Source of the DNA: Octopus vulgaris
Lineage: Eukaryota
Assembly (NCBI GenBank): GCA_951406725.2
Contig: OX597833.1
Coordinates: 28,830,001-28,894,000 of the forward strand
DNA length: 64,000 nucleotides
Direction of reading: 5' to 3'
Made by a program: the position numbers and the translations under genes. Positions 2,691-55,639 of this stretch are shown piece by piece (position 1 is the first letter of the stretch; every line of letters begins with the position of its first letter). A model generated the notes under the pieces. That model saw only the letters and a list, made by a program, of their open reading frames with translations, was not told the DNA's origin and did no database searches.

Positions 2691-2751
<61 letters not shown>

Positions 2752-2757
<6 letters not shown>

Positions 2758-5409
2758 ATAAGAAAATGGAGAAATACATCTAAATCAAATATCAATTATC
2801 AGATAATACTCAATCACATACTTTATTAAACCACCACATAAGAGACTGTAGGGTTAAACATAAAAAAGCAGAACAAATCAGTGTACACAAAGGAATGTAC
2901 ATAAAAAAGTGTACATAAAAGAGTAATATTGTATAATAAGTAGAATATATATAAAAAAGAGAATATAAATATAAGTAAATATAAATATAAGTATAGATGA
3001 CATCTTACAGCTGTTTCGGCCATGTAGATAAGTATGTCTCATTTTACCAATATTAGCCTTTTATGGTAGGTCAATATATGGATATAAATGAGACATTTAG
3101 AAAAGTATCATAAGGCCTCTTCGGAGATATACATATACATATGAGTGCATATACTCACACTCCTATGCATATAAAAATATACATATACATAATAATGTAA
3201 ATAAATAATATAAATTAGTAAACATATATATGTTCCACATTCAATGTTTCAGTTTTTCAACTTAATATTGTGATAATAAACATACACATATTAGTACCTA
3301 GATGCAAATATACATAGTCAATAGTACATTATATTACTTCCTACTAATTTCCAAAGAGTCATAAAAGTTAGCATCATTATCGTTGTCAATACCATTAATG
3401 CTACCATCATTATCATTCATAATATTGTTAATATCGCTTACGTTAGGATCAAAAGTGGCACATATGTATGTCCGGGTTCCATTTAGTAATTTTCCTTATG
3501 ACATAAATACACTATTGGATTTGAATTTAAATTATCATTGTCTTCCTCATGGTTGGTCCGTTGAGAGCCGTCCCCACACCGCACAAGAAAAACATATACA
3601 TCCACATCCAACCCTAAACCCACACGTCTACATAAAGACCCACACACACATGCACACACACATGAGTAAACCCCGACACATCGCTACACATTCACTAGAT
3701 TGCAGAGTGCATGTCTGTCATCGCATGGCTTATAGACAAATCAGTACAGGCCGCAGTGTCTATACACTAACACTAACTTATAATTAATTTAATTTAATTC
3801 ATAATTAATGAACTTATATCTAAGTTAATAGTAAATTCTGTTTACTTTTTGTGTATGTATATATACGTCTTTGGATGGGCAGACATATATTTTTAATTTA
3901 TGATTTAGTGGATGTGGGTTGAGGTGTCGAGGTGTGTGAAAATGTGTATGTGTACGTATGTATGTTTTTGTACGTATAGGTATGTTCGTGGGTGTATGTA
4001 CGGATGTATGTTTTTGTTATACATATGAGTACGCAGGTGCGTATTTGGATATGTATATATGTATATGCAAATATTTATTCATGGGTGGATATAAGTATAG
4101 GTTTTATTTGTACGTATGAGTGCGCTGACATATATTTAAATATGTATATATGTGTGTAGAAATGTTCCCTGATACAGTATATGAGATTGTATTAATATCT
4201 ATGAGTATATGCGGATGTGCGTGTGAGTGTGTGTGTTTTAGTGTATAGACACTGCGGCCTGTACTGATTTGTCTATAAGCCATGCGATGACAGACATGCA
4301 CTCTGCAATCTAGTGAATGTGTAGCGATGTATCGGGGTTTACTCATGTGTGTGTGGGTCTTTATGTGGACGTGTGGGTTTAGGGTTGGATGTGGATGTGT
4401 ATGTTTTTCTTGTGCGGTGTGGGGACGGCTCTCAACGGACCAACCATGAGGAAGACAATGATAATTTAAATTCAAATCCAATAGTGTATTTATGTCATAA
4501 GGAAAATTACTAAATGGAACCCGGACATACATATGTGCCACTTTTGATCCTAACGTAAGCGATATTAACAATATTATGAATAATAATGATGGTAGCATTA
4601 ATGGTATTGACAACGATAATGATGCTAACTTTTATGACACTTTGGAAATTAGTAGGAAGTAATATAATGTACTATTGACTATGTATATTTGCATCTAGGT
4701 ACTAATATGTGTATGTTTATTATCACAATATTAAGTTGAAAAACTGAAACATTGAATGTGGAACATATATATGTTTACTAATTTATATTATTTATTTACA
4801 TTATTATGTATATGTATATTTTTATATGTATAGGAGTGTGAGTATATGCACTCATATGTATATGTATATCTCCGAAGAGGCCTTATGATACTTTTCTAAA
4901 TGTCTCATTTATATCCATATATTGACCTATCATAAAAGGCTAATATTGGTAAAATGAGACATACTTATCTACATGGCCGAAACAGCTGTAAGATGTCATC
5001 TATACTTATATTTATATTTACTTATATTTATATTCTCTTTTTTATATATATTCTACTTATTATACAATATTACTCTTTTATGTACACTTTTTTATGTACA
5101 TTCCTTTGTGTACACTGATTTGTTCTGCTTTTTTATGTTTAACCCTACAGTCTCTTATGTGGTGGTTTAATAAAGTATGTGATTGAGTATTATCTGGTAA
5201 TTGATATTTGATTTAGATGTATTTCTCCATTTTCTTATCTTGTATTAGTAATTTGTGGTAAATCATTTTACCTTTGCCCATATAATACAGTAAATGAATT
5301 GATTGCATTTGCAATCCTTAACATTAACTTTGTTGGGTACTTCACTAGCAGTATATTGGATATAGGTTATCCCATGGAGGGTTGCATTTACAACCCCTAT
5401 CTCAATTTG

Positions 5410-5410: not shown

Positions 5411-5465
<55 letters not shown>

Positions 5466-6502
5466 AAAAAAGCCCACTCCAGTTTTGTAAATGTTCTGGG
5501 ATTTTGCAACTGACCTCTAAAATTTGTAGACATGCTGAACTGAGGACCATACACGACACACAAACGTCTTGTAACACATCAGGAGGAAACATTAGTTCAG
5601 ACATATTTCATTAATCTGTTTTATTTTATTTTACTTTTATTTTTTTGCTTGTTGTGTTAATGATTCTGATATAAAAATGATGTACTCATTAAGCCATTGG
5701 CAATTGTGAGAACGTAGCATCCCACGCAAATACATTGTTTTCTTCCAATATTATTTCTGATGTATGGTGTCTGTGTTCCGTTAGCAATCGAGGAATTATA
5801 ATGATTTTCCTTCAGTATTTATTAAATATTCCTTGAATCTCTTTGCATCATCTATTACGTTCGTTCAGTTTTACTCCTTTATTGTTTCAGCCATCCAGCT
5901 ACGGCTTATGCTTGGACACCGCCATTAATGATTGTGAAAATGAAGTATTTGCACTAATAGCCATTCTCACATATAAGAATTCCGTTATAAACAAGAAATT
6001 CCAGGAGCTTTTCAACAGCAGTTACAGTATGTATTTTCACTTCAAAAACCTTCAGTCTTCTATACTATATTCCAGCGACTGGGTTCCCTATTTTTTAAAG
6101 TATAATTAATGTTCCAAGATGTATTTATTGACGCCTGTAATTTCGACTAAAAAAACAGGCGGAAATATGGAAATTCTTATTTTGTGGGAATATGCTATGA
6201 ATAAGCATTTGACATTGTATAAAACGAAAACGATGGGTCGGCGGACAGAAAGACACGAAATGCCAGCTCAAGTGTAATTAATGTCGACTTGGGCTATTTC
6301 ATCAATTATTACATTTCATACTGCATATTTTTCCATGTAACATTGCATTATCTCATCTCATCTTTCTATTTTCTAATGTCATGTATATGTTGAGGCAGCT
6401 GAAAATATAGGGCACTGCAATTTTGTGCAGCTATAGACCAAAGGACTGTAAGTTGCATCGATGCGCATGTGTGAAGTTTTTATATCCGTATTCTGCTACA
6501 CG

Positions 6503-7671: not shown

Positions 7672-7707
7672 CATTTCAAAATATTGGCTATTACAGCCTT
7701 ACACAGA

Positions 7708-7778
7708 GGGGACAGCACAAGGTGGGGACAGCACAAGGTGGGGACAGCACAAGGTGGGGACAGCACAAGGTGGGGACA
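7708..7778. repeat. 16-bp tandem repeat (ggggacagcacaaggt) x4 in the retroelement 3' UTR
   Basis: Directly visible. Confidence 0.9.
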
Positions 7779-8595
7779 CAAAAAAACAAAACGAATGAAA
7801 GGATGAATTAAATATAATGAAAGATGGAATGAAGCCGCTCGGCCCCCACCTTCGAGCGACTTCATTGAACCTGTTAATACAACCTATTAATACAACTTTT
7901 TTTAAACACTAGTTTGTAATACCATTATTGGCGACAGCTAATTACCATCCCTCCAAAGGATGTTTACACTATGCTTGTTTAAAATGTTATAAAAACTTAC
8001 TTGTTCAGGCATTGAGCTGGTGTCCAATTTCTTGACCCACCACTCATAGCCATGGTTTTCCTCATAGTCCTTTAATCTCGACATATATTCTGGGCCTACC
8101 ACTACACAGCGAATTTGCTCGGGCACCCCCAATACTCCTGATATATCCACTTTTATAACACTGTCCCACGAGTCTATTTCGGTATACAGTTTTTCATTTT
8201 CTCCACTGTACCATATAACATGTCTTTTCCAAGGGCAAGGGTGGGGAAATTTAGGGCTCCTGTGTGCTTGTGTTTGTCGTCATGTCAGGTGGAGCATGGA
8301 GAGGGTTGGAATCTCTAAAGAGTGGTTGGGGTAGCGTGGGTGTGGGTGGGAGTCGGACGGATGTGGGATGGGGGTCGTCATTTACAACACGTGTTCTCTT
8401 TTTTCGCTCTCTTCTCTTTTTTCCCGCCGTTTCCCATCCCTTCTTCACCTCCTCTTCTTCGACGCTGGTACTGGTTTTTGTCTGTGGTGCAGCTTCAATT
8501 CCCTTCTTACTCTCGTGCTTCTCTTCAGCCTCCATGGGTGGTGGAGGACCAGTTTCCTTTTCTTTCTCGTGCTTCTCTCTGGCTTTCACGGGTGT

Positions 8596-8666
<71 letters not shown>

Positions 8667-8879
8667 AAAAAAGCCCACTCCAGTTTGTAAATGTTCTGGG
8701 ATTTTGCAACTGACCTCCAAAGCATGTAGACATGCTGAACTGAGGACCATACACGACACACAAGCGTCTTGTAACACATCAGCAGGAAACATTAGTTCAG
8801 ACATATTTCATTATGGCTGAAAACAATAAAGGAGTAAAACTGAACGAACATAATGGATGATGCAAAGACATTCAAGGAA

Positions 8880-9265
8880 TCTCTCTATATATAAACGGCA
8901 AAATGTCTGTGTGTGTGTGTATCCTTTATACAAATCCACAATTTTTCAGTTAGAGGGCTCGCACCTTCTATGGTCATTCAAAACCGTCCAAGAGTGGTCG
9001 TGCACATCTTTACATTTCCCCAGTCACCCCGCAAAGCCATTCAAAAATCAATAGAAGTGACTTTTTGTGAATTTTCTATCCAAAACCCAATCAAAATGCC
9101 CGAAACTTAATACGCCAATTGAATGCCAACTAGCTGTATGTGATTGGTCGGAGATTTGGACAGTACTCGCGTGTATGTGCGCACGCACGCAGCTGTATAT
9201 GCATGCGCTAGCACTATGACCCGGCCTTGCCGGGTCATAGTGCTAGCGCATGCATATACAGCTAG
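8880..9265 (+). mobile_element. Non-autonomous Helitron
   Basis: 5' TC, 3' hairpin (acccggc ctt gccgggt) and CTAG end. Inserted between A and T with no TSD: the uninterrupted paralog near 5810-5835 (minus) reads aggaa|tatttaataaatactgaa. Confidence 0.75.
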
Positions 9266-9380
9266 TATTTAATAAATACTGAAATAATAGTGCTAGTATT
9301 TAATAAATACTGAAATAATAGTGCTAGTATTTAATAAATACTGAAATAATAGTGCTAGTATTTAATAAATACTGAAATAA
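9261..9380. repeat. 31-bp tandem repeat, about 4 copies (gctagtatttaataaatactgaaataatagt)
   Basis: Directly visible; the unit spans the Helitron 3' junction. Confidence 0.9.
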
Positions 9381-11110
9381 AAATGTGGCTTTCAGGCTAC
9401 ATTTATAGCACCACGGAATCCTTCCTACCACTTCTCCGACCGTGATCGTCTCCATCGTGTTTTCGATGTCTTCTGGGGCCACCTGTACTACCATGTCTAG
9501 ACTCTGCCCTTGCCAGTTCCTGTGGGGTGTTCTGGCGGCCTGTATGACCACTACTCTCTCCTTCATGCCTAGCAGTATGGCAGCTACCAACCAAGCTACA
9601 TCCACTTCTGGGGTATGTCTTCTACCCTAACCTTGGCAGGACGTCTCCCAAGGTATATGGGTAGAAGCATCACTGCATCAGTTTATAACGGTGTTGCTGA
9701 GTGCAGCCTGGCAGTAGCTACCTCCCGAAACTGCACCTCCACTGTTCATTTTCTTTACCCAACAGTCAAAGTCGATGTCTTCCTCATGATTCCTTAATCC
9801 CAATAGATCCTCCGGGTTTGCCACCGTACAGTAAATGTCCTCGGGTAACTCCCTCACTCCTGCTACATCCTCTTTTATCGCTCTGTCCCATGTCTCAAGC
9901 TCATTATAATGTTCTTCTTTTTGTCTCTTGTACAATATAACAAATTTATCCAAGGGCCAGAGTGGGGAAATCCGGGGCTCGTGTGTGCTTGTGTTTATGT
10001 CAGGTAGGGCATGGAGAAGGTTGGTGTCTATAGGGAGTGTTTGGGGGTAGAGTGGGTGTAGGATGGAGGTCGTCATTTACCACGTGTGTCTTTTTTCTCC
10101 TCTTTCTTTTTTCCCGCCGTTTCCCATCCGTTATTCACCTCCACTTCTTCGACGCTGGTACTGGTTTTTGTCTGTGGTGCAGTTTCAATCTCCTTCTCGT
10201 GCTTCTCTTCAGCTTCCACGGGTAGTGGGGAACCAATTACTTTTTCGCTCTTGTGCTTCTCCTTAGCCTTCACAAGTGGTGGAGGACAATCCGCTCTAAC
10301 ACCGGAATCCTCCCTTCCACTCTAACTCTAAGTGTCACTTCTCCGACCGTGATGGTCTCCACCATGTTTTCAGTGTCTTCTGGGGCCTCTATTATGTCTA
10401 GGCTCTGCCCTTGCTAGTTCCTGTGTGGTGTTCTTGTGGCCTGCCGGACCACTACCCTCTTCTCCATGCCTAGCAGTGTGGCAGCCAGCAGCCAAGCTAC
10501 ATCCACTTCTGGGAGTATGTCTTCTACCCTGGAAGCACATCTCCCAAGGTACTTCATCGGTTTTTAACGGTGTTGTTGAGTGCAGGCTGGCAGTAGCTAT
10601 CTCCCGAAACTGCACCTTCACTGTTCCATACCTTCTTCCCCTTGCAAGGTAGGAAATCCCTCTTGCCAGACTGGTCTCAGCGCCTTTCCAACTTGGGCTG
10701 CTGACACTACTTCAATTTTCTTCGTTGCCACCGCGTACGTCCTGTAAATTATCACTTTTTTTTTATTATTTTAAAACTTCTTTGGTGGGGAACACCTTCA
10801 CATCGTTCCCTTCCCTTTTAATCATTTCCTTGAACCTGTTTAACTCCTTCAGACTCACGTCTTCAGTTTTTTCCTTCGCCGCTTCTGCGTAATTTTTTTT
10901 TTATCTCCATAGCCTCGTCAATTCTTTTCAGACTTTTCACTAACTCTTCCTCAGACGACATAAAGTCTGAAGAAGAAGGACTCAAACTTTGTAATTCATA
11001 ACACGACGCTCTACCATTAAACAAGAGGGAAGACGTCGCACACTACCGCTGCAAGACAGCCAAAAACACGAGTTTCACACAAAGACAACCGTTCGAACAA
11101 TCAATAACCA

Positions 11111-18834: not shown

Positions 18835-19563
18835 CGTTTTTCTCTATTGTAGGCACAAGGCCCAAAATTTTTGGGGAGGAGGCCAGTCGATTAGATCGAC
18901 CCCAGTACGCAACTGAATTTGAACTCAAAACGTAACGACAGACGAAATACTTATTTCTTTACTACCCACAAGAGGCTAAACACAGAGAAGACAAACAAGG
19001 ACAGACACACGGATTAAGTTGATTATATCGACCCCAGTGCGTAACTGGTACTTATTTAATTGACCCCGAAAGGATGAAAGTCAAAGTCGACCTCGGCGGA
19101 ATTTGGACTCAGAACGTAACGGCAGACGAAATACCTATTTCTTTACTACCCACAAGGGGCTAAACACAGAGAGGACAAACAAGGACAGACACACGGATTA
19201 AATGGATTATATCGACCCAGTGCGTAACTGGTACTTATTTAATCGACCCCGAAAGGATGAAAGGCAAAGTCGACCTCGGCGGAATTTGGACTCAGAACGA
19301 AATACCTATTTGGACTCAGACGAAATACCTATTTCTTTACTACCCACAAGGGGCTAAACACAGAAAGGACAAACAAGGACAGACACACGGATTAAGTCGA
19401 TTATATCGACATCAGTGCGTAACTGGTACTTATTTAATCGACCTCGAAAGGATGAAAGGCAAAGTCGACCTCGGCGGAATTAGGACCCAGAACGTAGCGA
19501 CAGACGAAATACTGCTAAGCATTTCGCCCGGCGTGCTAACACTTCTGCCAGCTTGCCGCCTTC
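18835..19563 (-). mobile_element. Head-to-tail array (about 3.5 units of about 190 bp) of tRNA-derived SINE family B
   Basis: Repeated gaaaggatgaaaggcaaagtcgacctcggcggaatt; full head only in the rightmost unit; ttaaataaaaa on both flanks; monomer at 44017-44245. Confidence 0.85.
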
Positions 19564-19615: not shown

Positions 19616-21110
19616 TTAATTATTTATTAGAACAAACATTACTGTGATGGCACTTAGAATTACATTGCATATTATTTTTGGAACAGGCACACTTTTTAGT
19701 ATCATATTGTGTTTTGTACAAAGCTTTTTTAAATCCTTTCTAGTGCTGGTACTTTGATCAGTAGCAACAGACCAAAGTGAATGAGATTTGTCTGACATTA
19801 ATTTCATTTTCTTAGCTTGAGTTTCCAGACATTCTTTAGCTATGTGTCTTTCTTTCTCGATATTTATTTCATTTAAACATAACCTGCAGACCTTCCGTAC
19901 AATTTTGTTTTCTGTGTACCAGACTTCTGAGCATGACACATGGATAGGCTGCTCACATTTCCTGCAAAATAGGTTGTCTTTGCAATTTTTTGAACACACA
20001 ACACACACTTTCACAGTCTGATTCGGAGATGTTTCTTCGACGGAAACAGCATCATCATGTTCGGAGGATGCAGTAATAGCAATCAAGGCATTTTCAAATT
20101 GTTGTTCATCCTCCACTAATTCAAACACTTCCCTCGCAATAGGAGTTGTGGACAGTCCAACTCTAGGAGCACAGCCAAATATAGCCTCATAAGGCATTCT
20201 CTTTATAGCATAATGAAGCGCTTTGTTTTTCATGAATTTAATAAATTTAAGCCTGTGACTCCATGACGTAGACTGGTTGTCTTGTATTCAAGTTGTTAAC
20301 ATATTTTCGATGTCTTGGTTGGCCCTCTCACCGCTACCTTGACTCTGACTATGCCTTGGCTTACTATGTACGATCTTAAGTTATTTTCAAGTCGTTTATG
20401 AGTTTATTACAAAATTCCCTGCCGTTGTCGGACTGCAGAATACATGGAGCACTGAGCAATAAAAATATATCGAGCAACTATGTGGTGACTTCTTCTGCCC
20501 TCTTTGTTTGAAGACGTCTTAAAACTACAAACTTTGTTAAGTGGTCTTGTTACGCTAAAATAAATTCATAATTTCCATCAGGTTGAGACTGAAAATCTAT
20601 AAGGTCTACTTGACATCTTGAATTGAGATGCTAATATACCATGCCTTTCTTTCCCTTATTTCTTTTTTCTTGGCAAGGTTCACAAACACTTAAAAACAAC
20701 TTGATTTCATTCTGAGTAATGTTTTTATATCGACGATTGAGTTCTTTTATCATACGGTCTCTACTACCATGTCCAATAGATATATGCGTTTCGTATAAAA
20801 TATCGAACAGTGCATCGCTTGAACAATAAAAGACGACATCAGGTTTTTGCATCTGTCACCGACACTATTAATTTTTCTACTCCTTGAACTTCATGAACAT
20901 CATAACGCTTAATTAACCAACAGGCATGTAGTACTTTTTAAATGGTATTTTAGCATTCTTTATTCTGCTAACAAACTTAACTACTTTTTACGAGTAAGCA
21001 TAGCACTATTTTTCTTTTGTCTCACGCTTATTTAACAAAAAATTAAACCGCTCTTGCATTACGTCTTTTCTATTTATATGTTGATCTTTCATCCCTTCCA
21101 GACTCATCTT
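19616..21110 (-). pseudogene. KRBA2/SCAND3-like DDE integrase remnant (Ginger-type DNA transposon) with a C-terminal Cys-rich PHD-like region
   Basis: THISIGHGSRDRMIKELNRRY...CEPCQ (HHCC); SRCQVDLIDFQ; LQSDNGREF; KPRHSQSQGSGERANQDIE; MPYEAIFG; CVVC...CRKC...HVSC...CRLC; frameshifts and stops. Confidence 0.8.
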
Positions 21111-21594: not shown

Positions 21595-22480
21595 TTAGCT
21601 GCAATATAAATGACTAGTTATATCTACTAAAAATGCAAAGTCACTATGAAACTTTTTGTCTTCCAGTTCTATAATAGGAATACCGTAAATATCCATAAAA
21701 ATTTTCACCTCTTCCTTCAATTCATAAAATCGCTTAAGCGTTTGCGCCTTACTTAACCACTTAACTTCACAATGGTACAATAACTCTCCGTATTCAGCTT
21801 CAAGATCTTTCAAAATTTCTTTTAATTCCCTATTCAACCCTTTGCTTTTTATCAAATTAACGGCCTTAGTTTCAACTTTCATTACATTGCCAATATCGAG
21901 AGATTTTGCACATAAACTTCCCATATGAATGAAGCATGACACACAAAGTTTCCGGATCCAAAAGAAGCTTCTTAAATTCATTCTTAAACAGAGCTACGAA
22001 CCCTTTTTCACGACCTGCTGAATCAGATTTTAGAGAATTTTGAACGTTATCAGCAATATCTTTAATACGATCAGAAGCAGTTCTTCTTGATAAGCTAATA
22101 TTTCCAAACAAATTAAGTAAATCTGGGCATATATTCTCAACAGCAGTAAGGATACATTCTTTCACGAGTTCACCATCGTAACTGATTAAATTTCAAGAAC
22201 TGGTCTTTTAAAAAAAAGCTTGTCTTTTGGTCAGATTTTCTTTCAAGGAGGCTATCTTGTTAAAACGTTCAGATTCTTTCAAATTTCCATAGGTCTTACG
22301 CTTACTCACAAAATGCCTCACTAAATTATATATTTTATGAATGGCTATTCGCTCATTGCAAATAAGACAAATGCACGTGTTATCTACTTCATTAAAAAAA
22401 TAAAGTTCATTCAATTTTTCAACAAACAAAGCACGTTCACCAGCACTTCTTTTTATAAGATTTTAATAACCGCTTGCCAT
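21595..22480 (-). pseudogene. hAT (Charlie/SPIN, GTF2IRD2/EPM2AIP1-like) transposase remnant with an internal deletion
   Basis: BED finger CICLICNERIAIHKIYNLVRHF; DGELVKECILTAVENICP; ISLSRRT; ELLYHCEVKWLS; FAFLVDITSHL. Confidence 0.85.
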
Positions 22481-23771: not shown

Positions 23772-23914
23772 TACGACGGGTTTCTTTCAGTTTCCGTCTA
23801 CCAAATCCACTCACAAAGCTTTGGTCGGCCCGAGGCTATAGTAGAAGACAAATGCCCAAGGTGCCACGCAGTGGGAATGAACCCGGAACCATGTGGTTAT
23901 TAAGCAAGCTACTT
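23481..23914 (-). mobile_element. SINE family A, body and 3' part; the head lies at 31585-31623
   Basis: Matches the intact copy at 58513-58880; sequence breaks at ttaagcaagctactt (23900-23914). Confidence 0.9.
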
Positions 23915-25948
23915 TATTTCATTAAGATTTGCCATAAAGGCATTACAAAGAGTAGCTTGTGGGCTGGACATATACATTGATGAGGTGAATGATGAGACAA
24001 GGATGATATTGATAAGAGAAGGCAGAAAACGCCCGCCGGTTTTCTGCTTCTCTAAAACATTATTTTTTTTCCCATCAAAAACGACAATTTTTGGACTTCA
24101 TAGTCCATTACAAATATATATAATAAATTATTCAATATACACACAATCTATAAGATCAATCAAGCAAATGACACGCCGCCTGCAGGAAAGCCTGCATCGG
24201 CAGGTCGGAGCCCAGAAAGAGGAAAGCAAAATCTTTCTTATTTCAGGTCACCATGACCTCGAACAGTTCCTTCTAACTCACGACGTCCGCAGCCACCTGC
24301 GGAGGCCAGTCTGGACAGTCTATACAAACCGAGTCCAATCGTTCTCGGCCTGGAAGACCGTCCAAGCACTTCTCGACAGGCCCTTCCCTGAGATAGAAAA
24401 CGACGGGTTTCACGTTCTCCTCACGGGGAGGGGCTTCAGCCCGCTCTGTCAGTGGCACAATTCCCACTGATAGAGCCTCTCGTTCCGGTGGCTCACGTTC
24501 CACCGAAGGGGTTTCGGAACATGCTGCCGCTGCACCAGTAACCGCCGGCGATGCCCCGTTTTTTCTTTCTTTTCTTTTTCCCCCCTTTTTCGCATCGGGA
24601 GAGCGAGGTTCCTCCGGTTTGTCCGTATGTCCCTCCTTCCCTCCCGCCGCCACGGGATCCATCGGTGGGCAACCATTGTTGTCTACCTTCTTTCTTTTTT
24701 TCCCTTTCGAGTGGGTTGCCTCCTCCTCGACTTTTTCTACACCTCCCTCCTTTATATGCTCAGAAGGCTCCGTTGGAGGAAAAACATCCTCCTCTATTAA
24801 TTTTTCCAGTGCCCTTGCATGGTTGTTGGGGCACTTCCTCTTAATGTGACCTGATTCCAGGCACAGATGGCAATTGAGGGGGCGTCCCTCAAGAGTCACC
24901 GGATCCCTAGAACCGGCCATCTTTAGAAAATCTGGGAAGACCAGGTCCATAGGGTCAAAATTGCTTTCGACCCCACCCAATCAGCCACAGGAAACATTCT
25001 AACATTCAAGAGCGTGGCTCTGCTACCACCCAGATCCCGGCGGATTGTATCCTCTATCCACTCAGGCTCTATTCCGGGTGGCAGGCCACTCACCCAGCCT
25101 CTTGTCAATTTCCTTCCCCGATATGTGGGGAGAAACAAAAATTTTTCCCCTTCCAGGGGCTGACTAGCAAACAAGCTAGCCTCTTTAGGGGTGTCAAACA
25201 GTAACCACACTGTTGCAAATTTGGCACCCCTTGCGATATACTTGATAGTTGGTAGGTATTCTGCCAACTCTTTTTCAATTTCGTCCTGTGAGAACACAGT
25301 GATGGTGCGAGTGACTTGGAGTATGTCCTCAACACCACCATTCTCTCATTTCGGTCCTCTATCCACTGCTTGGGGGGCACAATTTCCCACTCCAGCACAG
25401 TGGTTTTCTTTGTTGCCATGATTTAAAACCACGAAGAAACAAAAAAGAGTTCAACAAAAGTTCAAATGTTCTAAATAAAAGTTCAGTAATAAACACAAAA
25501 AAAAAGAACGGAAAGACAGAGCAGAGAAAAGAACGAAGGAAGACAGTTCAATCAACGGCAACACAATTCCACAAGTCCGATACAGGTACTCCAGCTGCAA
25601 AAATAGTCCTTCCTGCCTTGGTACTCCTTGGTAATCCAGTGGAAATTCACAGACACGAAGACAATTTTCGCAAACAAATTAATTTTTTCGGAGGGGGGAC
25701 ACCTCCTCAAAAACACAATTCTCACTGCAAAGTGAGTCTTTACGCACGACCACAGGCAGGTAATTGTCTGGAGCAGAGTGGAGACTGTTACTCACCAAAA
25801 AATATTAAATACAAAACAACAAACTCCACTAAGCCCTCAAAAAAATTCAACAAACACCTACCTGTAGTCGAGCCTCAAAGTTCAATATTTCACGACGAAA
25901 GACGTGACACCAAGCAGCCGAAAAAAAGACGTCTGTCTTCGACAAAGG
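23915..25948 (-). mobile_element. ORF1-only (non-autonomous) Tx1-related retroelement, about 2.0 kb
   Basis: Frameshifted ORF1 from ATG 25419 to about 24273: LPTYRGRK, CCHC knuckle CHLCLESGHIKRKC, Lys-rich linker; no RT. 5' end cctttgtcgaagacagacgtctttttt is identical to the neighbouring LINE; 15-bp duplication on both sides. Confidence 0.8.
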
Positions 25949-26173
25949 TTAAGCAAGCTACTTTATTTCATGAAAATTCGCCATTAAGGCGTTACATGGA
26001 GGGGACATACAAATACAGACAAACATATAGGGTGTAGTAGCTTAAAACGTTTTAGTATTTACAATATAATGTGTACAATATTTACAATATAAAGTTTACA
26101 AATTTAATATCACATAGTAGGGCAAGGAACCCAGCCATCTGGGTAGAACCTTTACTTCTTGATCCGGTCACAC

Positions 26174-29100
26174 TTACCTTGTGCCAAATATACCCAGCTT
26201 GCAAGCTACAGGCTTCCATCTTTTTACAAGCATATCTCGTGACAGACACCTCTTCTCCAGCCTGATCTCTCTACCGAGGTGGTAACTAAAGAAGTTAACC
26301 AACTCCTGGCCGGATACAAAGGTGCCTGTCACTATACCTTTCGTACGCGTCTTCCATACTGTTTCTTTCAGTATGGCTACCACGCAGGAAAAACAAGCCT
26401 TCCATTCCCTGCTGAGGAAAGGAGGTGGCACAATCTCAATGATAGACTCCGCTGATAGCTGTACTCTTCCACTCACTAACAACAGTTGTTCGGCAAAAGC
26501 AATCAGTTCCGATAACTCCGGGCACTCCACGAATGCGTGCAAGACGGTTTCCCTATCCCGCTCACATCGCGGACATGTCGGCGAGACGGCACTTCCGTGC
26601 CTTGACAGTTTGTCGCGAACAGGTAACGCCGCACGGAAACACTGTCAGGCCAGGGATTTCTGGTAATTATCCAGATACCCCGGCCCGAACGTTCTCCGGA
26701 ACAGGTTGACCAACTGATTTTCATCGTAGCCCAGGGTCTCCCCCAAGGCGTCTTCGGACTTAACCTCCACTAACCCGCTATAGAAATCCGCGGTAGAACT
26801 CCTGTTGCCGGCATTGCCCGCCTGAGAGAGTAGCTGAAGTGCCTGGCGGCACTCCGATTGCCAGCCCCCCAGCCTAGGTCTCTGCTTGATCCAATTACCA
26901 ATGTCCGTTAAGGACGTTAATTGCGGGATGTAGAACCGAACGTGCGGTGATCACACCTGCTCTCCATCCAAGTAAAGCCAGAGGTGCCTCAACCTTAACG
27001 CGAATTTTAGCATCATCAGCCAAGGCATCCCTAGCCCACCATTTAGCGGTTTCTGGCAGCAGACAGAGCGCTTTACAAGTGGCTTTCCTCCTTTCCACAA
27101 AAAGCGGAAAAGGATTCTCCCAACTCGTTCAGCCACAAATCTGGGCAAAGCACCACGGTCAGACGGTAGGTGACTACTGATGCTAGCAGGGATAACGCCC
27201 GTCCAGACCAGGTCTGGGTTAGAGCGTTCACTCTGCCGGCCACCTCACTCTAATTTTTCTCTATCTGGAGGTCTGGCTTGAACAAGACTCCGAGCAGCTT
27301 AACAGGATCTTCCGTCCAACGCCCCACGACGTTATTGGACGGCATCGGCTTGCCCCTCCAGTTGCCGAGTTGCAAACCGACCGACTTGTCCTTGTTAACC
27401 TTTGCTCCAACCACCGCCTCGTAGCTTTTGATGGCCTCTTCCACCACTGGAAGCTGGCCTTCATCTGCCACGATGATGTAGATGTCATCCGCGTACGCCG
27501 TAGCTCCTCTTCCATACTATAGATCATGCGGTGCGCCCCTAGTGCCTCCAACTTCCGCAGCAAAGGCTCAAGAGCCAACACATATAGAAGCGGGGACAGG
27601 GGACACCCCTGACGAACTGAACGCTCGATCCTGAACGGCTTCGAAAGGAAACTGTTCACTTTGACGACAGACTCGATGTCGCTATACAAAGCAGCGATCC
27701 AACCTCAAAAGGTCGGGCCCAGTCCAGCCTCTCCGAGGACCGCCGCCAAGAACCGATGGTCGACCCTATCAAATGCCTTAGACTGGTCTAAATGTACCAG
27801 TCCCCCCCCCCCTGCGCCAGAAAGCTTCCCCACCCTCTAAGGAGTAGCGTATAAGGTGGAGATTGTCGTGTATCGTCCTGCCCGGGATAGCGCACGTTTG
27901 CGCTTCCCCGACAAGTTTGTCCACGACCCGCGCCAACCTTTTCGCCAGCACCTTGGCTAAAATCTTTAACTCTGTTCAGCAGAGTTATGGGCCTGAAGTT
28001 CCCTATCTCGTCCCCCTTGCTCGGGTCCTTCCTGATCAACGTCACCCCGTGTCCGGCTTGCAGACTTGGGAATTCTCCCATTCTGCTGCCAATTGGCGAA
28101 GACGCTAACCAGCAGGTGCCTGAACAAGTCTGGCATACTTTTATAAAACTCATAGGGCAGACCATCGAGACCCGGCGACTTCTTCCCAGGTCACTCGCCC
28201 AACACCTCGATTACTTCCTCGGCTGTGATTGGCCCCTCACAGCACTCAGCCTCTCGTGCCGAGAGACGCGGGCCACCAGACAGGAAGTCCCTAAGGGCCT
28301 CACCATGATTCAGGGTCCCGCACCTCCCGAACAACTCCTCGAAGTGCTTGTAAAGTGCCTCACACATCTCGTCCCGCTCCTTGACCGTGCATCCGTTTCC
28401 GTCCGCAAGAGACCTAATTGTGGCATCGTTTCCACGCTGGGTTTCTATCGTACAACATTAATTCCCTCACGGCCCAATGCTCGCACTTTAGCCCGAACTC
28501 TACACCCTTCATGTTTGGTTTTGAGGTAACGTTCTAATGCCGTTCTCATCGCCAAAACGTGAGATGCAGAGCCCAACCTCAACGCCTCCTCTAAGTTCTT
28601 AACTAATTGCCCTTCTATTCTAGCCCTGTCTAATCTTAGTTGCTTACTAAACCAAATGAACTCGAATCGAATGGCTCTTTTGAGGGCGAACCACCACCGG
28701 TTATTAACCACGTTTCCGGTTAACGCCCTCTGTACTAACTCCTTAATCCGACTGCGGTATCCCTCACAAGTCAAAATAGACTTGTTCAGCTTCCAGTAGC
28801 CTGGTCCTATCTTAAGTGTGCTACCTATGTCCAGTCTACATTTGACCATTCTATGGTCAGTATAGGGCACCTTCACAGGCTGTGGACAACTAAAACTAGA
28901 CTTATCTCTAGTTCTTATCACTATCCTGTCTAGATAAGACTTGAACCTTCCGTCGCCACTCATTCAGGTCCACTCTGGGACGTTCGGATGGTCAAGTCTG
29001 TAGCGATCTGCCAGCTGAAACCGCTTAAGCAGGTCCACGAGACGTGAGTTCACTTTTCTATGGATGGAGCCAACACTATCGATGTGTACGTCAACAATAG

Positions 29101-29529
29101 CATTAAAGTACCCTAATACTACTAAAGTCTTCGACGTCACGAGAAAGTTCTCTAGGCGCCGATAAAAATCAGTTTGGAAACCTCTAGCACAAGGTGCATA
29201 GAGTCCGATCAACCTGAAGGCCTTACTGCTGTATGTCACATCAAGGACGACCAGCCCAACTTCAGGGTCCACATAGACTGTACTTGTCTGCAGAGCCAAG
29301 CCTTTACGGATCAGTACCACTACCCCGCTCGCCCTCCGCTCTGGCCAGGAGACATGATTTTCTCGTAGCCATTCAGGAGAGACGAGAAGGTTTGTAGACC
29401 GTCCAGCTTGGTCTCTGTAGCAACCATCACATGCATATCATGTGATCTAAAATCGTCGAGGAAACACGCCTGCTTCCACTTCGAACTCAGACCACGCACA
29501 TTCAAACAACCAAAGTTAAGTGAGTCCGT
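26174..29529 (-). pseudogene. Tx1 ORF2: APE endonuclease, reverse transcriptase and C-terminal CCHC-like domain
   Basis: LNVRGL, ATETKL, GLYAP, SYLDRI, YTDHRMV, GPGYWKLN, NFRPITLLN, DQSKAFDRVDH, SVRQGCPLSPLLY, AYADDI, C-P-R-C...HAFVEC; multiple frameshifts; the probable start codon reads ACG. Confidence 0.9.
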
Positions 29530-29552
29530 TTACAGAAAGTAAAAAGTTCTAC

Positions 29553-30957
29553 TTACTTTCTCCTCGGAGAAGCTGGGGCCGACTTCACCACACGTGGATC
29601 AACCTCTTCCTTCGCATAATTTGGAAGTTCGTTAATTTTCCAAATGGCGTGCGGGTTCCTTCCCTTTAAGTCGCGGTACAGGGTTTCCCCTATTGCTGCA
29701 CATCTCCGCGCCAGTCCTTCATGTTGGATATAAAGTTTTGACCTCAGATGTGTCACAATGGCTTCGTTTGTATATTGTTCAGTAGTGTCGTATTCGACAA
29801 GCATCCAATTTTCCTCTTTTTCTTCCGGGGTGGTTGGGCGGGATTTCTTTTTTAGTGCCTTTTGTGTATTGTTTTGGTTTTATTTTTTTTATAGGAGATA
29901 TGGTTGGGGAAGGTTTTCTTTTTCGAGGTGTTTTAAATCCACCCTCTGATACCTCCATGGTATCGTCTGAGGGGGTTAACGTCTGTAGGGGTAACACTTT
30001 TTGGAGCAGTCAGTGCCACAGCTTCCAAGGGTATGGGTGTTTTTATATTTGTAGGGGTTTGTGCGTGTAGGGGCTGGGTTTTTTTGTCAATTGTTTTGGG
30101 GCTGGCACCACAACAGGGTGAGTGGGGATTTTTTTGTTTGTGGGGTTGGTGTGTTTGCGGGGGTGGGTTTTTTGGTTATTTGAGGGGCCTGGTGTTTGCG
30201 ACAACTTTTTTTTCTTCACAGTCCACTCGAATATGGCCCTTTTTTCCGCATTGGTAACAGGTGGGCTTACGGCATTCCACCTGTACCCTAAGGGCTACAT
30301 TCTCCTCAACGAGCACTCTCTCTGGTAGGACCTGAATGTCCTCGTGTTTCCCTTGAATGTTCGACCCTAACCAATTCTGGGGCGTGGAACTTGTCGTTTG
30401 TAGTATTTTTATTTGGTCCGTCCTATTAAACAGCAGGGCGGCCACCACTTCTTTAGGGTCCACTTCAGGTGGCACTTCATTGATTCTTACACGGGACGTT
30501 CTTCGTCCCATATAAGTTGGCAGAAGTACTACTTCTTTGGACTTCAGGGGACACACGGAATGCCCGCGGGCCACCTCTTCCTTTGAGAATTGGACCTCAA
30601 CAGAACCATATGCCCGTCCCTTCGAGATATACACTATATCCCTCCATATCGGGGAAGGCACTTTTTGATTGTTTCTTTTTCGAAGTATTTAAACCTTTTG
30701 TCTTGAGGGCAGAAGGTTTTATACACTACGGTCTGTTTCTCTGTTTCTAACACAGTGGAGGACGGTGATATCACAACATCACCTCCCTCTTCCTTCATCC
30801 TTTTAAAATATCCCTGCAACATGTCTACCGAGATATCAATATTTTCGGTTGCCACTACGGCAACTGCCGAAAACTTTTTCACAGTGTTGACACAATTGCC
30901 AACATCAACATTGCTCTCTACAAGAGCAGATTTTTCATGAATGATTTCAACCGACAT
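29553..30957 (-). pseudogene. Tx1 ORF1 (gag-like, CCHC zinc knuckle), frameshifted
   Basis: ORF pieces 30634-30957, 30176-30661 (LLPTYMGRR; CYQCGKKGHIRVDC), 29779-29997 and 29553-29804. Confidence 0.85.
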
Positions 30958-31584
30958 GGTTGAAATAAGTATAATTCAAGAGAAAAGGTTTTCCTCTCGC
31001 AGAGGACAAAAATAATCAATTTGCATTACCGCAGTCTAAAGTTCAAATCCCACCCCCGATGAGGGGGGAGACGTATCAACAAAGTCTACAACGTTCGAAA
31101 TTAATTTTTCCATACAATAATGAAATATAGAATCCCCAAAAAGGGAAACCTATATCTTTTCCTCACAACGAGGACAACAGTTCAGATCTCACCCGCGCTA
31201 CGGGCGGATGCGACACTAGAGCCTACAATGGCTAAAATTTAATTTTTTCCACAATAATAATTTGCTCATCTCAAAAACGGGAAGCCTATAATATTTTTCC
31301 CTTTAATGAGGATAACAGTTCAAATGCCACCCCCGCTGGGGGCGGGGCACGACAATAAAGCCTACAACGGCTTTAACAAGTTCAATATTAATAATATTAA
31401 TAAATTCAATATTAATAATTTCAATATTTCAACAATTACTTTCTCCCGTCACCGGGAAAAAGCACAAAAATTTTCAAAGTTCACGAAAATATTCAACAAT
31501 AATTATTCAACAATAGAAAAATTATCCACGTGCAACAACACGTTTGACTCACCGCCAAAAAAAGACGTCTGTCTTCGACAAAGG

Positions 31585-31623
31585 TTAAGCAAGCTACTTA
31601 CCACACAGCCACTGCTGCGCCTA
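31585..31623 (-). mobile_element. Displaced 5' head (A box) of SINE family A
   Basis: ttaagcaagctacttaccacacagccactgctgcgcct. Confidence 0.85.
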
Positions 31624-31734: not shown

Positions 31735-32356
31735 ACGGCAAACAATTTGCATGTTGATTTCACTTCATAGAAATTGGTTCTTTACATTCTTATTCTTTTC
31801 TCTATCTTTTTATGATACGTATTTTATAGCCTTCCCCCACCCCTAACTCTTAAACTAAAATAGATTGAAATGCAATAGATCGATACTATGGTTATAATTA
31901 TGGGTGACAATTTCATACGACACCGCTATAAAAAACTTAGCGGTGTCTTATGAAATTGTCACATATAATTATAACCCTAGTATCGATCTATTGCATTTCA
32001 ATCTATTTTAGATTTAGGGTTAGGGTTAGGGTTAGGGTTAGTTAGGGTTAGGGTTAGGGTTAGGGGTTGGAGAAGGGTATCTTTTTTTCTTCACAAATGT
32101 AAATAAACCCAATCTGTTTCTTAAAGGAGGGACATATTCATTATGCACAGAATGTTATTTACCTAAATGGAGGTCAGCGATTGATTAAAATTGCCGAAAT
32201 GCAAGAAATTAAAGACGAAATATGTTACAACCTATAGAATTTTCTCAATAAAGCCAAGAGAAAATGATATAAACACATTCTACCAGTATACGAAGTTTAA
32301 AATTTTTTTAGTTACCTAGAAATTGTTACAAACTGCCGTTCGAAAGGAAAAGATCC
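31735..32356. repeat. Fold-back repeat carrying (TTAGGG)n; likely two MITE copies fused in opposite orientation
   Basis: Inverted arms at about 31853-31928 and 31938-32010; about 8 TTAGGG units at 32014-32064; ends aaggaaaagatcc beside (TTA)n. Confidence 0.7.
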
Positions 32357-33805: not shown

Positions 33806-35092
33806 GAGGGACGTTCAATAAGTAATGCCTCTGACCCATTTGCAGTTGTTTGATCTAGCTGAAATTTTGCATGTGCAATCATTTATATCTCTGTAGAGTA
33901 AGTGACAAATTACAGTTCTGAACTAATTGTGGTTTCTGATTTACAGGTGTTTGAACTGAGTCAAGTGTGAAATGGAGCCTGTTGAGTGTCGAACAGTGAT
34001 CCGGTTTTTGTATTTGAAAGGACGCACACCACGGGAGACTTTTGATGAAATGAAAGTAACTTATGGTGATGATGCCCCATCATATGACCTTGTAAAACGC
34101 TGGGATCGTGAATTCAAACATGGTCGGAACTCTGTGGAAACAGCTCCCATATCTGGTCGCCCTCTTCTGCCATTGATGAGGCATCTGTCCGTCAAGTTGA
34201 GGCTGCCATTTTCGAAGATCGACGCATAATTATTCGCCAAATAGCCCATGAGGTCAAGATTAGTACCGGGTCTGTGGAAACTATCATTCATGACCATTTG
34301 CATATGCAAAAAGTGTCTGCCAGATGGATTCCCAGGTTGCTCACGCCTTTCCAGAAGCAAGAACGCGTCGAGTGCTCGAGGATGAATTTGGAGATGTGCC
34401 AAGAAGATGAGTCAAATTTTTTCAAAAGACTGATTATACAGGATGAAACCTGGGTCCATCACGATGATCCAGAGACCAAAGCCCAGTCAATGCAGTGGAA
34501 GCACCGTGACTCACCTCCTCCAAAGAAGGCAAGGGTGCAGCCCTCCGCTGGCAAGATCATGCTCACAGTCTTTTGGGACCAGGACGGAGTAGTGATGACA
34601 GATTTCCTGGCAAAGGGTACCACAATTACAGGAGCCTATTATGCTTCACTTTTGAGGAAATTAAGAGAAGTTATCAAAATCAAGAGGCGGGGCAAGATCA
34701 GCAAAGGCATCCTCCTCCTGCAGGACAATGCTCCGGTCCACAACTCGCTTGTCGCCAGATCAGAAGCACAGGCGTATGGCTATGAACTCCTCCCCCGTCC
34801 CCCCTACTTTCCTGACATTGCACCCTCTGATTTTCACCTCTTCCCAGTCATAAAGTTGTTTTTGAGAGGAAAGCGTTTCCTCTCAGCCTTGATTTCTAAA
34901 GTCACGTTCAGGTTGGAGGACCAAGCTGGGGTCTTCTACAAAAACGGTCTCCAGAGCTGCATCAAACGATGGTAGAAATGCGTAACTCTGGGTGGTTCCT
35001 ATGTAGAAAAAGACTAATAGCTGTGCCAAGTTTCGTTGCTCTACTGCTATAGGAAGTGGGTCAGGGGCATTACTTATTGAACGCCCCTCGTA
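33803..35092 (+). mobile_element. Mariner transposon, full length, irritans/Hsmar2-like termini
   Basis: About 34-bp TIRs tacgagggacgttcaataagtaatgcctctgaccca / tgggtcaggggcattacttattgaacgcccctcgta with TA flanks. Confidence 0.95.
33972..35018 (+). pseudogene. Mariner DD34D transposase, frameshifted near 34160 with a late premature stop
   Basis: WIPRLL, IQDETW, LQDNAPVH and YFPDIAPSDFHLF motifs. Confidence 0.92.
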
Positions 35093-44016: not shown

Positions 44017-44245
44017 CGAGCTGGCAGAAACGTTAGCACGTCGGGCGAAATGCGTAGCCGTATTTCGTCTGCCGTTAAGTGTTCTGGGTTCAAATTCCGC
44101 CGAGGTCGACTTTGCCTTTCATCCTTTCGGGGTCGATAAATTAAGTACCAGTTACGCACTGGGGTCGATGTAATCGACTTAATCCCTTTGTCTGTCCTTG
44201 TTTGTCCCCTCTATGTTTAGCCCCTTGTGGGTAGTAAGGAAATAT
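44017..44245 (+). mobile_element. SINE family B, near-complete monomer
   Basis: tRNA-like head gagctggcagaaacgttagc, B-box-like gggttcaaattcc, body gtcgactttgcctttcatcctttcggggtcgataaa. Confidence 0.85.
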
Positions 44246-44667
44246 ATCTATCGATCTATCGATCTGTCTGTCTGTCTATCTATCTATATACGTGCGTGTG
44301 TGTTCCTCCCCAAACACCGCTTGACAACCGGTGTTGGTGTGTTTACGTTCCCGTAACTTAGCGGTTCGATCGACAGAATAAGTACAAGGCTTAATATTTT
44401 TTTTTAATGTACTGGGATCGATTCATTCGTCAAAACTTTTAAAGGTGGTTCCCAAGTACGGCCGCAGTCTAATGACTGAAACAAGTAAAATAATCAAAGA
44501 GTAAAAACCTATTAAACAAACATATATATATAGACATGCGCGCACGCACACACAAACGCGCGCACGTCCACACACGCATACACTCACAGAAACACACACA
44601 AACGCACACAAACACACTAGACAAAATAAAATAAAGAAAATAACTATTAACCTCAGAGAAATAACAG

Positions 44668-54655: not shown

Positions 54656-54689
54656 TAACTTTCTAACTAACAAAAATAATAATAATTTC

Positions 54690-54835: not shown

Positions 54836-55639
54836 CATGTAAAGAAAAGAATTTTAAAAATTCAAGCTGAAAAATTTTCCAAAATGAAGGAAAACACAGG
54901 GCTACTCGAGAAAATCCAACAAATTCCTGGCTACCCTAATTAAAAAAGCAAGGGACCCTCTCCCAGCTGTCCTCCAAACTACAGACGCATGCTCAAAGCA
55001 GGCCCGTTGGCACGTACCATGTTTGTCAGTCTGATCTAGGTTTTAGCTAATTTTCCTTTTCAAGTGAAATTTCAAAGATCTGATGAGGACCTGGCTAAAG
55101 AGGTTCAGTCAGGTCCACCACACAACCTCTTTCGGCTAAACCGCCAAACAGATAAAGACTGTTTTCCCTACTCGAACAAAAGAAGGCGGCGGAATGACCG
55201 TCACAAAGGTCTCAGCTGGTTCGTCCTACTCCTAATAGAAGTCAGCAATGCTCAGGCCCTGGACGCTTTCGTTGCCTTGCTCACATTTCGACAGTCCTGG
55301 CTAATGGCACTTCGTGTCTAGACAATTTATCTAGAACCAACAATGATTTCCCCACGGCTGTACAGGCCAGTCCATGATTTTCACCTCTCCGATAATAACA
55401 CAATTTTTGCTCACCACTTAGCCTCTATACAACTTCAACGTGAAATTTTTACACATCGTATTGCTCGACTGGTTTAGGGCTGTTATCGCTTGACGAAATT
55501 CTAGATACCGTGTATCCTAATTAGGTCTGTGGTTGAGACATGATTACAGCCCCTTCAAAGAAACAAGCTGTGGAAAAATGAATCTGGCAACCATGTTCAC
55601 TGTCAAGAAATTACTGGAGAGGTCGCAGCCTTCGTGTAC

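What the first reader, a model, noticed from the sequence alone, without database searches (positions are those of the whole stretch)
23915..25948. 'Half-Tx1': an ORF1-only non-autonomous retroelement with its own divergent gag-like protein
Seen: complete ends, one frameshifted ORF1 with LPTYRGRK and a CCHC knuckle, then a short 3' UTR; no trace of APE or RT. It is not a simple deletion of its neighbour, because the ORF1 and UTR interiors differ strongly. Established: HAL1 (from L1) and HeT-A are ORF1-only elements mobilised in trans. Inference: an independent HAL1-like lineage within cephalopod Tx1; the 7672-11110 element would be a second such lineage.
Basis: partly seen in the sequence, partly recalled or inferred. 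Interest (0 to 1): 0.7.

Follow-up and report, generated by a model that had tools for sequence, protein, structure and literature searches.

The report
ORF1-only retroelement inside an octopus SINE
A decayed 2-kb octopus retroelement keeps the ends, insertion site and RNA-binding gene of a site-specific LINE but has no copying enzyme, so it probably spread by borrowing one, a known trick that I did not find reported for this group.

Summary
The feature is real. 23915-25948 (minus strand; element B) is a 2,034-nt non-LTR retroelement. It is flanked by 15-nt target repeats and sits in a fixed site of a repeated SINE-like element, directly behind a decayed full-length L1/Tx1-like element (A). 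B carries one ORF1 (two RRMs, CCHC knuckle) and no detectable ORF2; a 100-nt ORF2 control was easily detected.

Corrections: ORF1 has two frameshifts, not one, and probably two further stops, so this copy is dead. It is an RRM-type ORF1, not a retroviral gag. B matches A at its ends (first 28 nt identical; last 38 nt 31/38) but not in ORF1 (23% over 82 columns), so it is not a deletion of A. Its ORF1 lacks the family's N-terminal extension and has one close relative, an Octopus sinensis protein (71%), with modest signs of purifying selection. Element C (7672-11110) also lacks ORF2 and uses the same site, but its ORF1 region is duplicated and interrupted.

Best reading (0.6): a HAL1-like ORF1-only lineage moved in trans by SINE-targeting helpers. 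Copy number and absence of an RT-bearing parent could not be tested. New variant of a known kind.

The parts
23915..25948 (-). Element B: ORF1-only non-LTR retroelement, 2,034 nt
   Evidence: flanking repeats; no ORF2 trace
25921..25948 (-). B 5'-terminal 28 nt, identical to the 5' end of element A (short hairpin followed by a T run)
   Evidence: 43/43 including the target repeat; fold
25420..25948 (-). B 5' UTR, 529 nt, not alignable to A beyond the first 28 nt
25309..25419 (-). B ORF1 piece 1 (start codon; matches P0001 residues 1-37, 78%)
24932..25309 (-). B ORF1 piece 2 (RRM1 and most of RRM2; LPTYRGRK at 25132-25109; matches P0001 38-163, 75%)
24273..24947 (-). B ORF1 piece 3 (end of RRM2, CCHC knuckle 24872-24831, low-complexity tail, first stop)
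24156..24272 (-). Probable decayed continuation of ORF1 past two in-frame stops (inferred from composition only)
   Evidence: GC 0.50, GC3 0.66 versus 0.23, 0.18 downstream
23915..24155 (-). B 3' UTR, 241 nt (358 nt if ORF1 ends at the first stop)
23931..23947 (-). 3'-terminal TGTAA plus small stem-loop shared with elements A, C and D
23900..23914 (-). Target-site repeat, copy 3
25949..25963 (-). Target-site repeat, copy 2 (between A and B)
31585..31599 (-). Target-site repeat, copy 1
31585..31622 (-). 5' part of the split SINE-like repeat (A-box-like motif, read by eye)
   Evidence: 95% over 40 columns to the uninterrupted copy at 58514
23791..23914 (-). 3' part of the split SINE-like repeat (B-box-like motif, read by eye); the repeat continues to about 23500
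   Evidence: 89.5% over 124 nt
25964..31584 (-). Element A: decayed full-length L1/Tx1-like element (ORF1 30958-29553; ORF2 29529-26174 with APE-like, RT and zf-RVT parts); the candidate helper type
7672..11110 (-). Element C: ORF2-less element at the same SINE site; ORF1 region duplicated (C1 10964-9746, C2 9745-7938), secondary inserts about 9385-8600

Best explanation
B is a dead copy of a non-autonomous, ORF1-only retroelement lineage derived from SINE-targeting L1/Tx1-type LINEs of octopus.

1. SHOWN: it encodes only an RRM-RRM-CCHC ORF1, keeps the 3' stem-loop and tail of the autonomous type, and sits at the helper's exact target site between 15-nt repeats.
2. INFERRED from established LINE biology: its RNA was packaged by its own ORF1 protein in cis. 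An A-type ORF2 protein supplied in trans bound the conserved 3' end, nicked the SINE target and reverse-transcribed the RNA in place (target-primed reverse transcription). Each insertion regenerates the target, which explains the head-to-tail A-B tandem.
3. INFERRED: the ends stayed matched to the helper while ORF1 and the UTR interiors diverged and the N-terminal extension was lost. Selection kept the folded part of ORF1 because it is needed in cis.
4. C2 is a second, separate loss of ORF2.
For: Target and flanks: 2 of 4 SINE copies in the window that retain the site are occupied, both at the same position, by three elements. C's repeat carries a copy-specific variant on both sides, as a true duplication should.
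No ORF2 remnant in B or C against 5 of 5 targets each, with a working control. 3' UTR lengths (B 241-358, C 266 nt) resemble those of ORF2-bearing A (210) and D (about 180), so ORF2 is missing cleanly in two elements whose ORF1s share only 27% over 62 columns.
Ends versus interior: A-B 3' ends 31/38, A-C and B-C 26/38. In ORF1 the order reverses: A-C2 47%, A-B 23%.
B plus P0001 form a 100/100 clade on a 1.31 substitutions/site stem, across a 93/93 split from A and C. The N-terminal extension is not found in B's 5' UTR (1 of 8 queries p<0.05, versus 7 of 8 in the control).
Selection, B versus P0001: 149/196 identical in the folded part versus 44/75 in the tail (Fisher p 0.007). Replacements in the folded part are more conservative than neutral (p 0.024). 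No stops in 280 aligned codons (neutral p 0.014).
Similar decay in A (at least 10 lesions/3353 nt, 5/1403) and B (2/1144 or 4/1261) fits activity in the same period.
Precedent: HeT-A, HAL1 and Ag-Sponge (PMC5786205, passages).
Against: Only one genomic copy of B was seen. P0001 has no context, so it could sit upstream of an ORF2. Selection on ORF1 is equally expected in an autonomous parent. Over all 280 columns the replacements are not more conservative than neutral (p 0.27). P0001 was found because it is an annotated open frame, which biases the no-stop test. The neutral DNA divergence that would give the B-P0001 difference (0.13-0.17) is in a range where an orthologous insertion in another octopus species cannot be excluded. 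C1/C2 C-terminal domains show dN/dS 0.94 over 66 codons, with no sign of constraint. The shared 5' 28 nt is not significantly present in C (180 of 3000 random windows score as well) and may be a long duplication. The ORF2-remnant test used only A and D as references, since a search for database ORF2 relatives returned 0 of 349 candidates.
Confidence: 0.6

Rival explanations
1. B is one copy of an ordinary autonomous family with a divergent ORF1. It lost ORF2 once, by a template jump during insertion or by a later deletion.
For: Single copy seen. Internal deletion by template jump or recombination is documented for target-specific LINEs (PMC3414825, passages). ORF1 constraint needs no special explanation. 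C shows that these elements do rearrange.
Against: The loss is clean in two unrelated ORF1 lineages in one 64-kb window. By my own arithmetic, not a tool result, two random breakpoints each falling in a ~250-nt zone of a 5.3-kb element is about 0.4% per deletion. No protein of 246-2000 aa joins B-type ORF1 to ORF2 domains (only P0001 among 347 candidates), which is weak evidence.
Confidence: 0.22
2. B and C2 are retrocopies of spliced, ORF1-only transcripts of autonomous elements (ORF2 removed as an intron). They arise repeatedly but do not propagate as lineages.
For: This would explain clean ORF2 loss. Splice-donor-like GTRAGT motifs overlap A's ORF1 stop, A's ORF2 stop and B's first ORF1 stop (noticed after the fact, no control run). 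Spliced L1 retrocopies are known (recalled, not checked).
Against: B retains its donor-like motif, which splicing at that site would remove. No parent is available to locate a junction.
Confidence: 0.1
3. B is a one-off chimera: helper-type ends joined to an ORF1 from a distant family. Its shared 5' end may simply be part of a 43-nt duplication made by A's later insertion.
For: Ends group B with A while ORF1 does not. The 43-nt match is perfect despite decay of both elements.
Against: C's duplication is only about 11-13 nt, far shorter than 43. Conserved 5' extremities between otherwise different LINEs have precedent (ingi/L1Tc; PMC4758252, passages). The 3' match stops at about 40 nt, as expected for a recognition signal.
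Confidence: 0.06
4. B is a processed copy of a domesticated host gene, or an assembly artefact.
For: The closest protein is annotated as an O. sinensis gene model. The domain layout resembles ZCCHC3.
Against: Retroelement termini shared with A, a fixed target, flanking repeats and 16 further distant homologues that align with A's and C's ORF1.
Confidence: 0.02

Closest known systems
HAL1 (half-L1) of mammals
   Same: Non-autonomous, encodes ORF1p only, arose several times independently (PMC5753468, passages). ORF1 coding kept for a long time, implying cis ORF1p plus trans ORF2p (PMC3627910, passages).
   Different: HAL1 derives from L1 proper. B is site-specific, ends in a shared stem-loop rather than a poly(A) run, has an RRM-RRM-CCHC ORF1, and its multi-copy status is unproven. 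The original HAL1 paper was not available.
HeT-A (Jockey clade) and Ag-Sponge (CR1 clade)
   Same: ORF1-present bipartite non-autonomous LINEs (PMC5786205, passages). HeT-A is targeted and forms head-to-tail arrays with its helpers (10.1101/445429, passages).
   Different: Different clades. HeT-A serves telomeres; no host function is indicated for B.
Target-specific Tx1 clade (Xenopus Tx1L, Keno, Kibi, Koshi, Tx1-Mar)
   Same: APE-type elements that prefer a multicopy target, including other transposons (PMC4494074, passages and section 15). RRM/zf-CCHC ORF1 is typical of the clade (PMC5203782, passages).
   Different: Targets named in those passages are piggyBac, Mariner, Harbinger and LTR elements, snRNA/5S genes, satellites and microsatellites, not a SINE. 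No ORF1-only Tx1 derivative is listed's passage. Clade placement was not tested by RT phylogeny.
R2 and R2/R1 SIDEs of Drosophila
   Same: Internally deleted, site-specific non-autonomous elements that keep the helper's 5' end and 3' recognition signal (PMC3414825, passages).
   Different: SIDEs are short and encode no protein; B keeps a whole ORF1.

Membership tests
ORF1-only non-autonomous LINE (HAL1/HeT-A/Ag-Sponge type) | ORF1 present from start codon through RNA-binding domains | tested here: met
   P0001 aligns from residue 1 in three frames; RRM-RRM-CCHC
ORF1-only non-autonomous LINE (HAL1/HeT-A/Ag-Sponge type) | No ORF2 (EN/RT) sequence | tested here: met
   5 of 5 targets non-significant, 100-nt control detected. 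Pfam: 0 of 8 B fragments matched, but Pfam is insensitive here (1 of 7 true ORF2 fragments of A matched RT in that call)
ORF1-only non-autonomous LINE (HAL1/HeT-A/Ag-Sponge type) | Retains the helper's 3' end and shows TPRT-type flanks | tested here: met
   31/38 with A, shared stem-loop; 15-nt repeats
ORF1-only non-autonomous LINE (HAL1/HeT-A/Ag-Sponge type) | Multiple independent copies with the same ORF2-less structure | not testable with these tools
   No eukaryotic genome collection. Prokaryotic genome scans found nothing. P0001 has no context
ORF1-only non-autonomous LINE (HAL1/HeT-A/Ag-Sponge type) | ORF1 under purifying selection after loss of ORF2 | tested here: inconclusive
   Modest constraint between B and P0001, but it cannot be assigned to an ORF2-less period; C1/C2 dN/dS 0.94
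HAL1 proper | Derived from mammalian-type L1 | tested here: not met
   ORF1 is RRM-RRM-CCHC with no Pfam match to an L1 ORF1 family; site-specific insertion
Tx1 clade | RT phylogeny groups with Tx1 | not testable with these tools
   B has no RT; A's RT is fragmented and no reference set was retrieved
Tx1 clade | Helper has APE-RT-zinc finger ORF2 | tested here: met
   A: RVT_1 E 1.9e-4 and 5e-5, zf-RVT E 2.6e-7; APE only weak, best to L1-type endonuclease chains at E 0.16-0.23
Tx1 clade | ORF1 with RRM and CCHC domains | tested here: met
   trait described in PMC5203782
Tx1 clade | Preference for a multicopy target | tested here: met
   A, B and C at one position of one repeat; 2 of 4 site-bearing copies occupied; small sample
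tRNA-derived SINE (the target) | tRNA-related head with A and B boxes | tested here: inconclusive
   Box-like motifs read by eye; no tRNA call by ARAGORN or Rfam. The SINE label is recalled; tRNA-derived octopus SINEs are cited in PMC4758252

The most novel reading that the evidence does not exclude
Octopus genomes hold a guild of SINE-targeting Tx1-type LINEs that has repeatedly produced long-lived ORF1-only parasites. The B lineage keeps only helper-matched terminal signals (28 nt at 5', about 40 nt at 3') around a streamlined ORF1 without the usual N-terminal extension, maintained by selection across octopus species. Every insertion separates the two promoter boxes of the target SINE, so helper and parasite together would disable copies of a very abundant SINE: a three-level LINE / half-LINE / SINE system.
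Probability: 0.3. Interest if true: 0.7.

Novelty: new variant of a known kind. Interest (0 to 1): 0.5.

Why it matters
ORF1-only non-autonomous LINEs are listed for three clades (Jockey, L1, CR1; PMC5786205). A site-specific L1/Tx1-type case, arising at least twice, would show that keeping ORF1 while dropping the enzyme is a general strategy. It would also give a natural test of what ORF1 does in cis and of the minimal RNA ends a helper needs. A LINE that targets a SINE would add a target class to those in the passages I read. The interest is for transposon specialists. This copy is dead, no host function is indicated, and curated libraries such as Repbase or Dfam, which I could not search, may already hold the family.

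Tried and rejected
Finding more copies or context. Protein searches gave only P0001 as a close relative (1 of 347 candidates; 1 of 684, itself; 1 of 17 hits below 1e-10). The other 16 hits are 25-36% identical in the core and their names and organisms could not be looked up. A search for ORF2 relatives found 0 of 349. Prokaryotic genome scans were empty (0 matches; 0 of 601 stretches confirmed). Viral and metagenome contig collections stayed unchecked.

Weak matches rejected. C2's C-terminus versus A's ORF2 (score 48, p~0.016) is an out-of-frame alignment full of stops. B versus C1 C-terminus (37, p~0.013) is a 14-column match in non-coding frames. A 5' motif resemblance between A/B and C is not significant. 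One of 8 N-terminal queries scored p 0.015 in B's 5' UTR, which does not survive eight tests. The 3' stem-loop pattern's 4 hits versus 0.04 expected is circular, because the pattern was written from those four ends; it shows only that there are no other hits in the window.

Other dead ends. Whole-window Rfam hits were microsatellite noise. No solved structure matched A's RT-adjacent fragment. The order of insertion of A and B could not be resolved.

Literature. Ten searches found no paper describing an ORF1-only Tx1 family or a SINE-targeting Tx1 in octopus. Subscription journals and Repbase Reports are outside the library. The one supplement searched (PMC13282606) gives family counts only (80 L1-Tx1 families); supplements of the other papers were not examined and could list further Tx1 targets.

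Full report
SETTING. The window is microsatellite- and repeat-rich eukaryotic DNA. The only close protein relative of the finding is annotated in Octopus sinensis, so an octopus origin is inferred. On the minus strand the order is: 5' part of a SINE-like repeat (31622-31585), element A (31584-25964), element B (25948-23915, the finding), 3' part of the same repeat (from 23914). The 15-mer AAGTAGCTTGCTTAA occurs before A, between A and B, and after B. Against the uninterrupted repeat copy at 58514, the two parts join at this 15-mer. Element C (7672-11110) splits another copy at the same position, and both of its flanks carry a copy-specific variant of the repeat. Four copies in the window retain the site: two are empty (58514, 14278) and two are occupied. 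Two more lack the site, one through deletion and one through truncation. That the repeat is a tRNA-derived SINE is recalled and read by eye; ARAGORN and Rfam did not confirm it.

ELEMENT A is a decayed full-length LINE. Its ORF1 has a zf-CCHC match (E 6.6e-5); its ORF2 fragments match RVT_1 and zf-RVT (2 of 4 fragments, 1 of 7), and one fragment weakly matches L1-type endonucleases (E 0.16-0.23). It has at least 10 lesions in ORF2 and 5 in ORF1. APE-RT-zinc finger anatomy, an RRM/CCHC ORF1 and target preference fit the Tx1 clade as described in PMC4494074 (passages and section 15) and PMC5203782 (passages). No RT tree was possible, so the clade name is inferred.

ELEMENT B, ORF1. P0001 (281 aa) aligns to B from its first residue in three frames: 1-37 at 78%, 38-163 at 75% and 164-274 at 55%. 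There are therefore two frameshifts, not one. The third frame stops at 24273. The next 38 codons contain one more stop but keep coding-like composition (GC3 0.66 versus 0.18 downstream), so ORF1 probably once ended near 24156; this is inference from composition only. An AlphaFold model of P0001 (mean pLDDT 74.5) shows two RRM domains. Foldseek's top hits are tandem-RRM proteins, VIA-align gives Z 8.3, rmsd 2.7 over 81 residues to the La RRM, and Atlas neighbours are CCHC and ZCCHC3-type RBD clusters (0.90-0.92). It is a LINE-type RNA-binding ORF1, not a retroviral gag.

NO ORF2. B's DNA after ORF1 scored at null level against all five ORF2 targets from A and from D, a 5'-truncated relative at about 52950-54670. 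A 100-nt piece of D's ORF2 scored 91 against A (null 32+-4, maximum 42). C behaves the same; its one borderline score was an out-of-frame artefact. The test assumes B's parent ORF2 was about as close to A as D is. 3' UTR lengths are alike in ORF2-bearing and ORF2-less elements (A 210, D about 180, B 241-358, C 266 nt).

RELATION TO THE NEIGHBOUR. A and B are identical for 43 nt across their 5' junctions (15-nt repeat plus 28 nt) and 31/38 at the 3' end, where A, B, C and D share TGTAA followed by a small stem-loop whose stem is reversed in C. Interiors do not align: 5' UTR p~0.23, ORF1 DNA p~0.31, 3' UTR a weak AT-rich match at p~0.01. In a tree of 21 ORF1 cores, B and P0001 form a 100/100 clade on a long stem (1.31), across a 93/93 split from A and C; 9 of 18 inner branches were left open, the alignment is only 97 columns, and no rows were dropped. 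B and P0001 start 28 residues before the first conserved strand, whereas seven database relatives have 48-156, and no remnant of that extension is found in B's 5' UTR. So B's ends resemble A's while its ORF1 does not. The 43-nt identity has two readings, a shared terminus or a long duplication made by A; C does not settle it. Conserved 5' extremities between distant LINEs have precedent (PMC4758252, passages).

SELECTION AND AGE. B versus P0001: 149/196 identical in the folded part and 44/75 in the tail (p 0.007). Replacements are more conservative than neutral in the folded part (p 0.024) but not overall (p 0.27). 28% of differences need two or more base changes versus 10% simulated, and there are no stops in 280 codons (p 0.014, biased by annotation). 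This suggests divergence under selection rather than plain decay, but it cannot say whether ORF2 was present at the time. Lesion density in B (1.7-3.2 per kb) is near A's (3.0-3.6 per kb).

ELEMENT C has no ORF2 and a different ORF1 lineage (C2 47% to A, 27% to B, 68% to P0010 over 62 columns). It holds the ORF1 region twice head-to-tail (89%, 88% and 71% identical blocks) and secondary inserts, part of which recur at 5422-5613 and 5828-5894. Its C-terminal copies show dN/dS 0.94 over 66 codons. It supports a second ORF2 loss but is a messy witness.

MECHANISM. Shown: anatomy, target, flanking repeats and shared 3' signal. Inferred from established LINE biology: cis-made ORF1p packages the RNA; a trans ORF2p of A type binds the 3' end, nicks the target and primes reverse transcription; regenerated targets give tandems. 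Tandem insertion of target-specific elements is noted in PMC4494074 and PMC4640811 (passages). I put 0.6 on a propagating ORF1-only lineage, 0.22 on a one-off loss, 0.1 on spliced retrocopies, 0.06 on a chimera and 0.02 on a host gene or artefact.

COMPARISON AND NOVELTY. PMC5786205 (passages) lists HeT-A, HAL1 and Ag-Sponge as ORF1-bearing non-autonomous LINEs from the Jockey, L1 and CR1 clades. PMC5753468 and PMC3627910 (passages) describe repeated HAL1 origins and long ORF1 retention; the HAL1 paper itself I did not see. B works like HAL1 but is not HAL1. Ten literature searches found no ORF1-only Tx1 family and no SINE-targeting octopus Tx1. Octopus repeat papers mention L1-Tx1 only as counts or family names (PMC13282606, passages and its one supplement; PMC8967140, passages). 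PMC8869645 (passages), PMC3414825 and 10.1101/445429 were read in passages for background. Repbase and Dfam could not be searched.

VERDICT. A real feature, with corrected anatomy; new variant of a known kind; interest 0.5. The decisive test, other genomic copies, remains open.

Noticed in passing
window 7672-11110 (-): Second ORF2-less element at the same SINE site, with a duplicated ORF1 region joined at a short microhomology near 9745 and secondary inserts at about 9385-8600 (31-nt tandem, palindrome, and a piece also found at 5422-5613 and 5828-5894).
   Followed up: yes
window 52950-54670 (-) and 55049-55585 (-): 5'-truncated ORF2 relative (D) with the same 3' stem-loop but not in the SINE site, plus an older ORF2 fragment upstream.
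   Followed up: partly
window 29540-29570, 26160-26190, 24262-24292 (-): Splice-donor-like GTRAGT motifs overlap A's ORF1 stop, A's ORF2 stop and B's first ORF1 stop. Noticed after the fact; no control run.
   Followed up: no
window 31585-31622 and 23791-23914 (-): The insertion site lies between the A-box-like and B-box-like motifs of the SINE head (read by eye), so insertion should break its internal promoter.
   Followed up: partly
window 34112-34975 (+) and 49095-50148 (-): Two decayed mariner-type transposase genes (Pfam Transposase_1 E 2.3e-24 and 1.6e-19).
   Followed up: partly
window 2751-3652 and 4344-5245: 902-nt inverted repeat, 99% complementary, 691 nt apart: a foldback-like element or an assembly artefact.
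   Followed up: no
window 32014-32065: Nine copies of TTAGGG about 400 nt from the split SINE, inside what looks like another repeat.
   Followed up: no
window 18915-19512: 184-nt tandem repeat, 3.2 copies, related to an inverted copy at 44081-44253.
   Followed up: no
window 19616-20287 (-) and 21595-22192 (-): Transposase-looking open frames (by eye) with no Pfam match at E 0.01.
   Followed up: partly
P0001: The O. sinensis gene model LOC115225585 looks like a retroelement ORF1: its first knuckle cysteine is replaced and it ends earlier than B's frame.
   Followed up: partly
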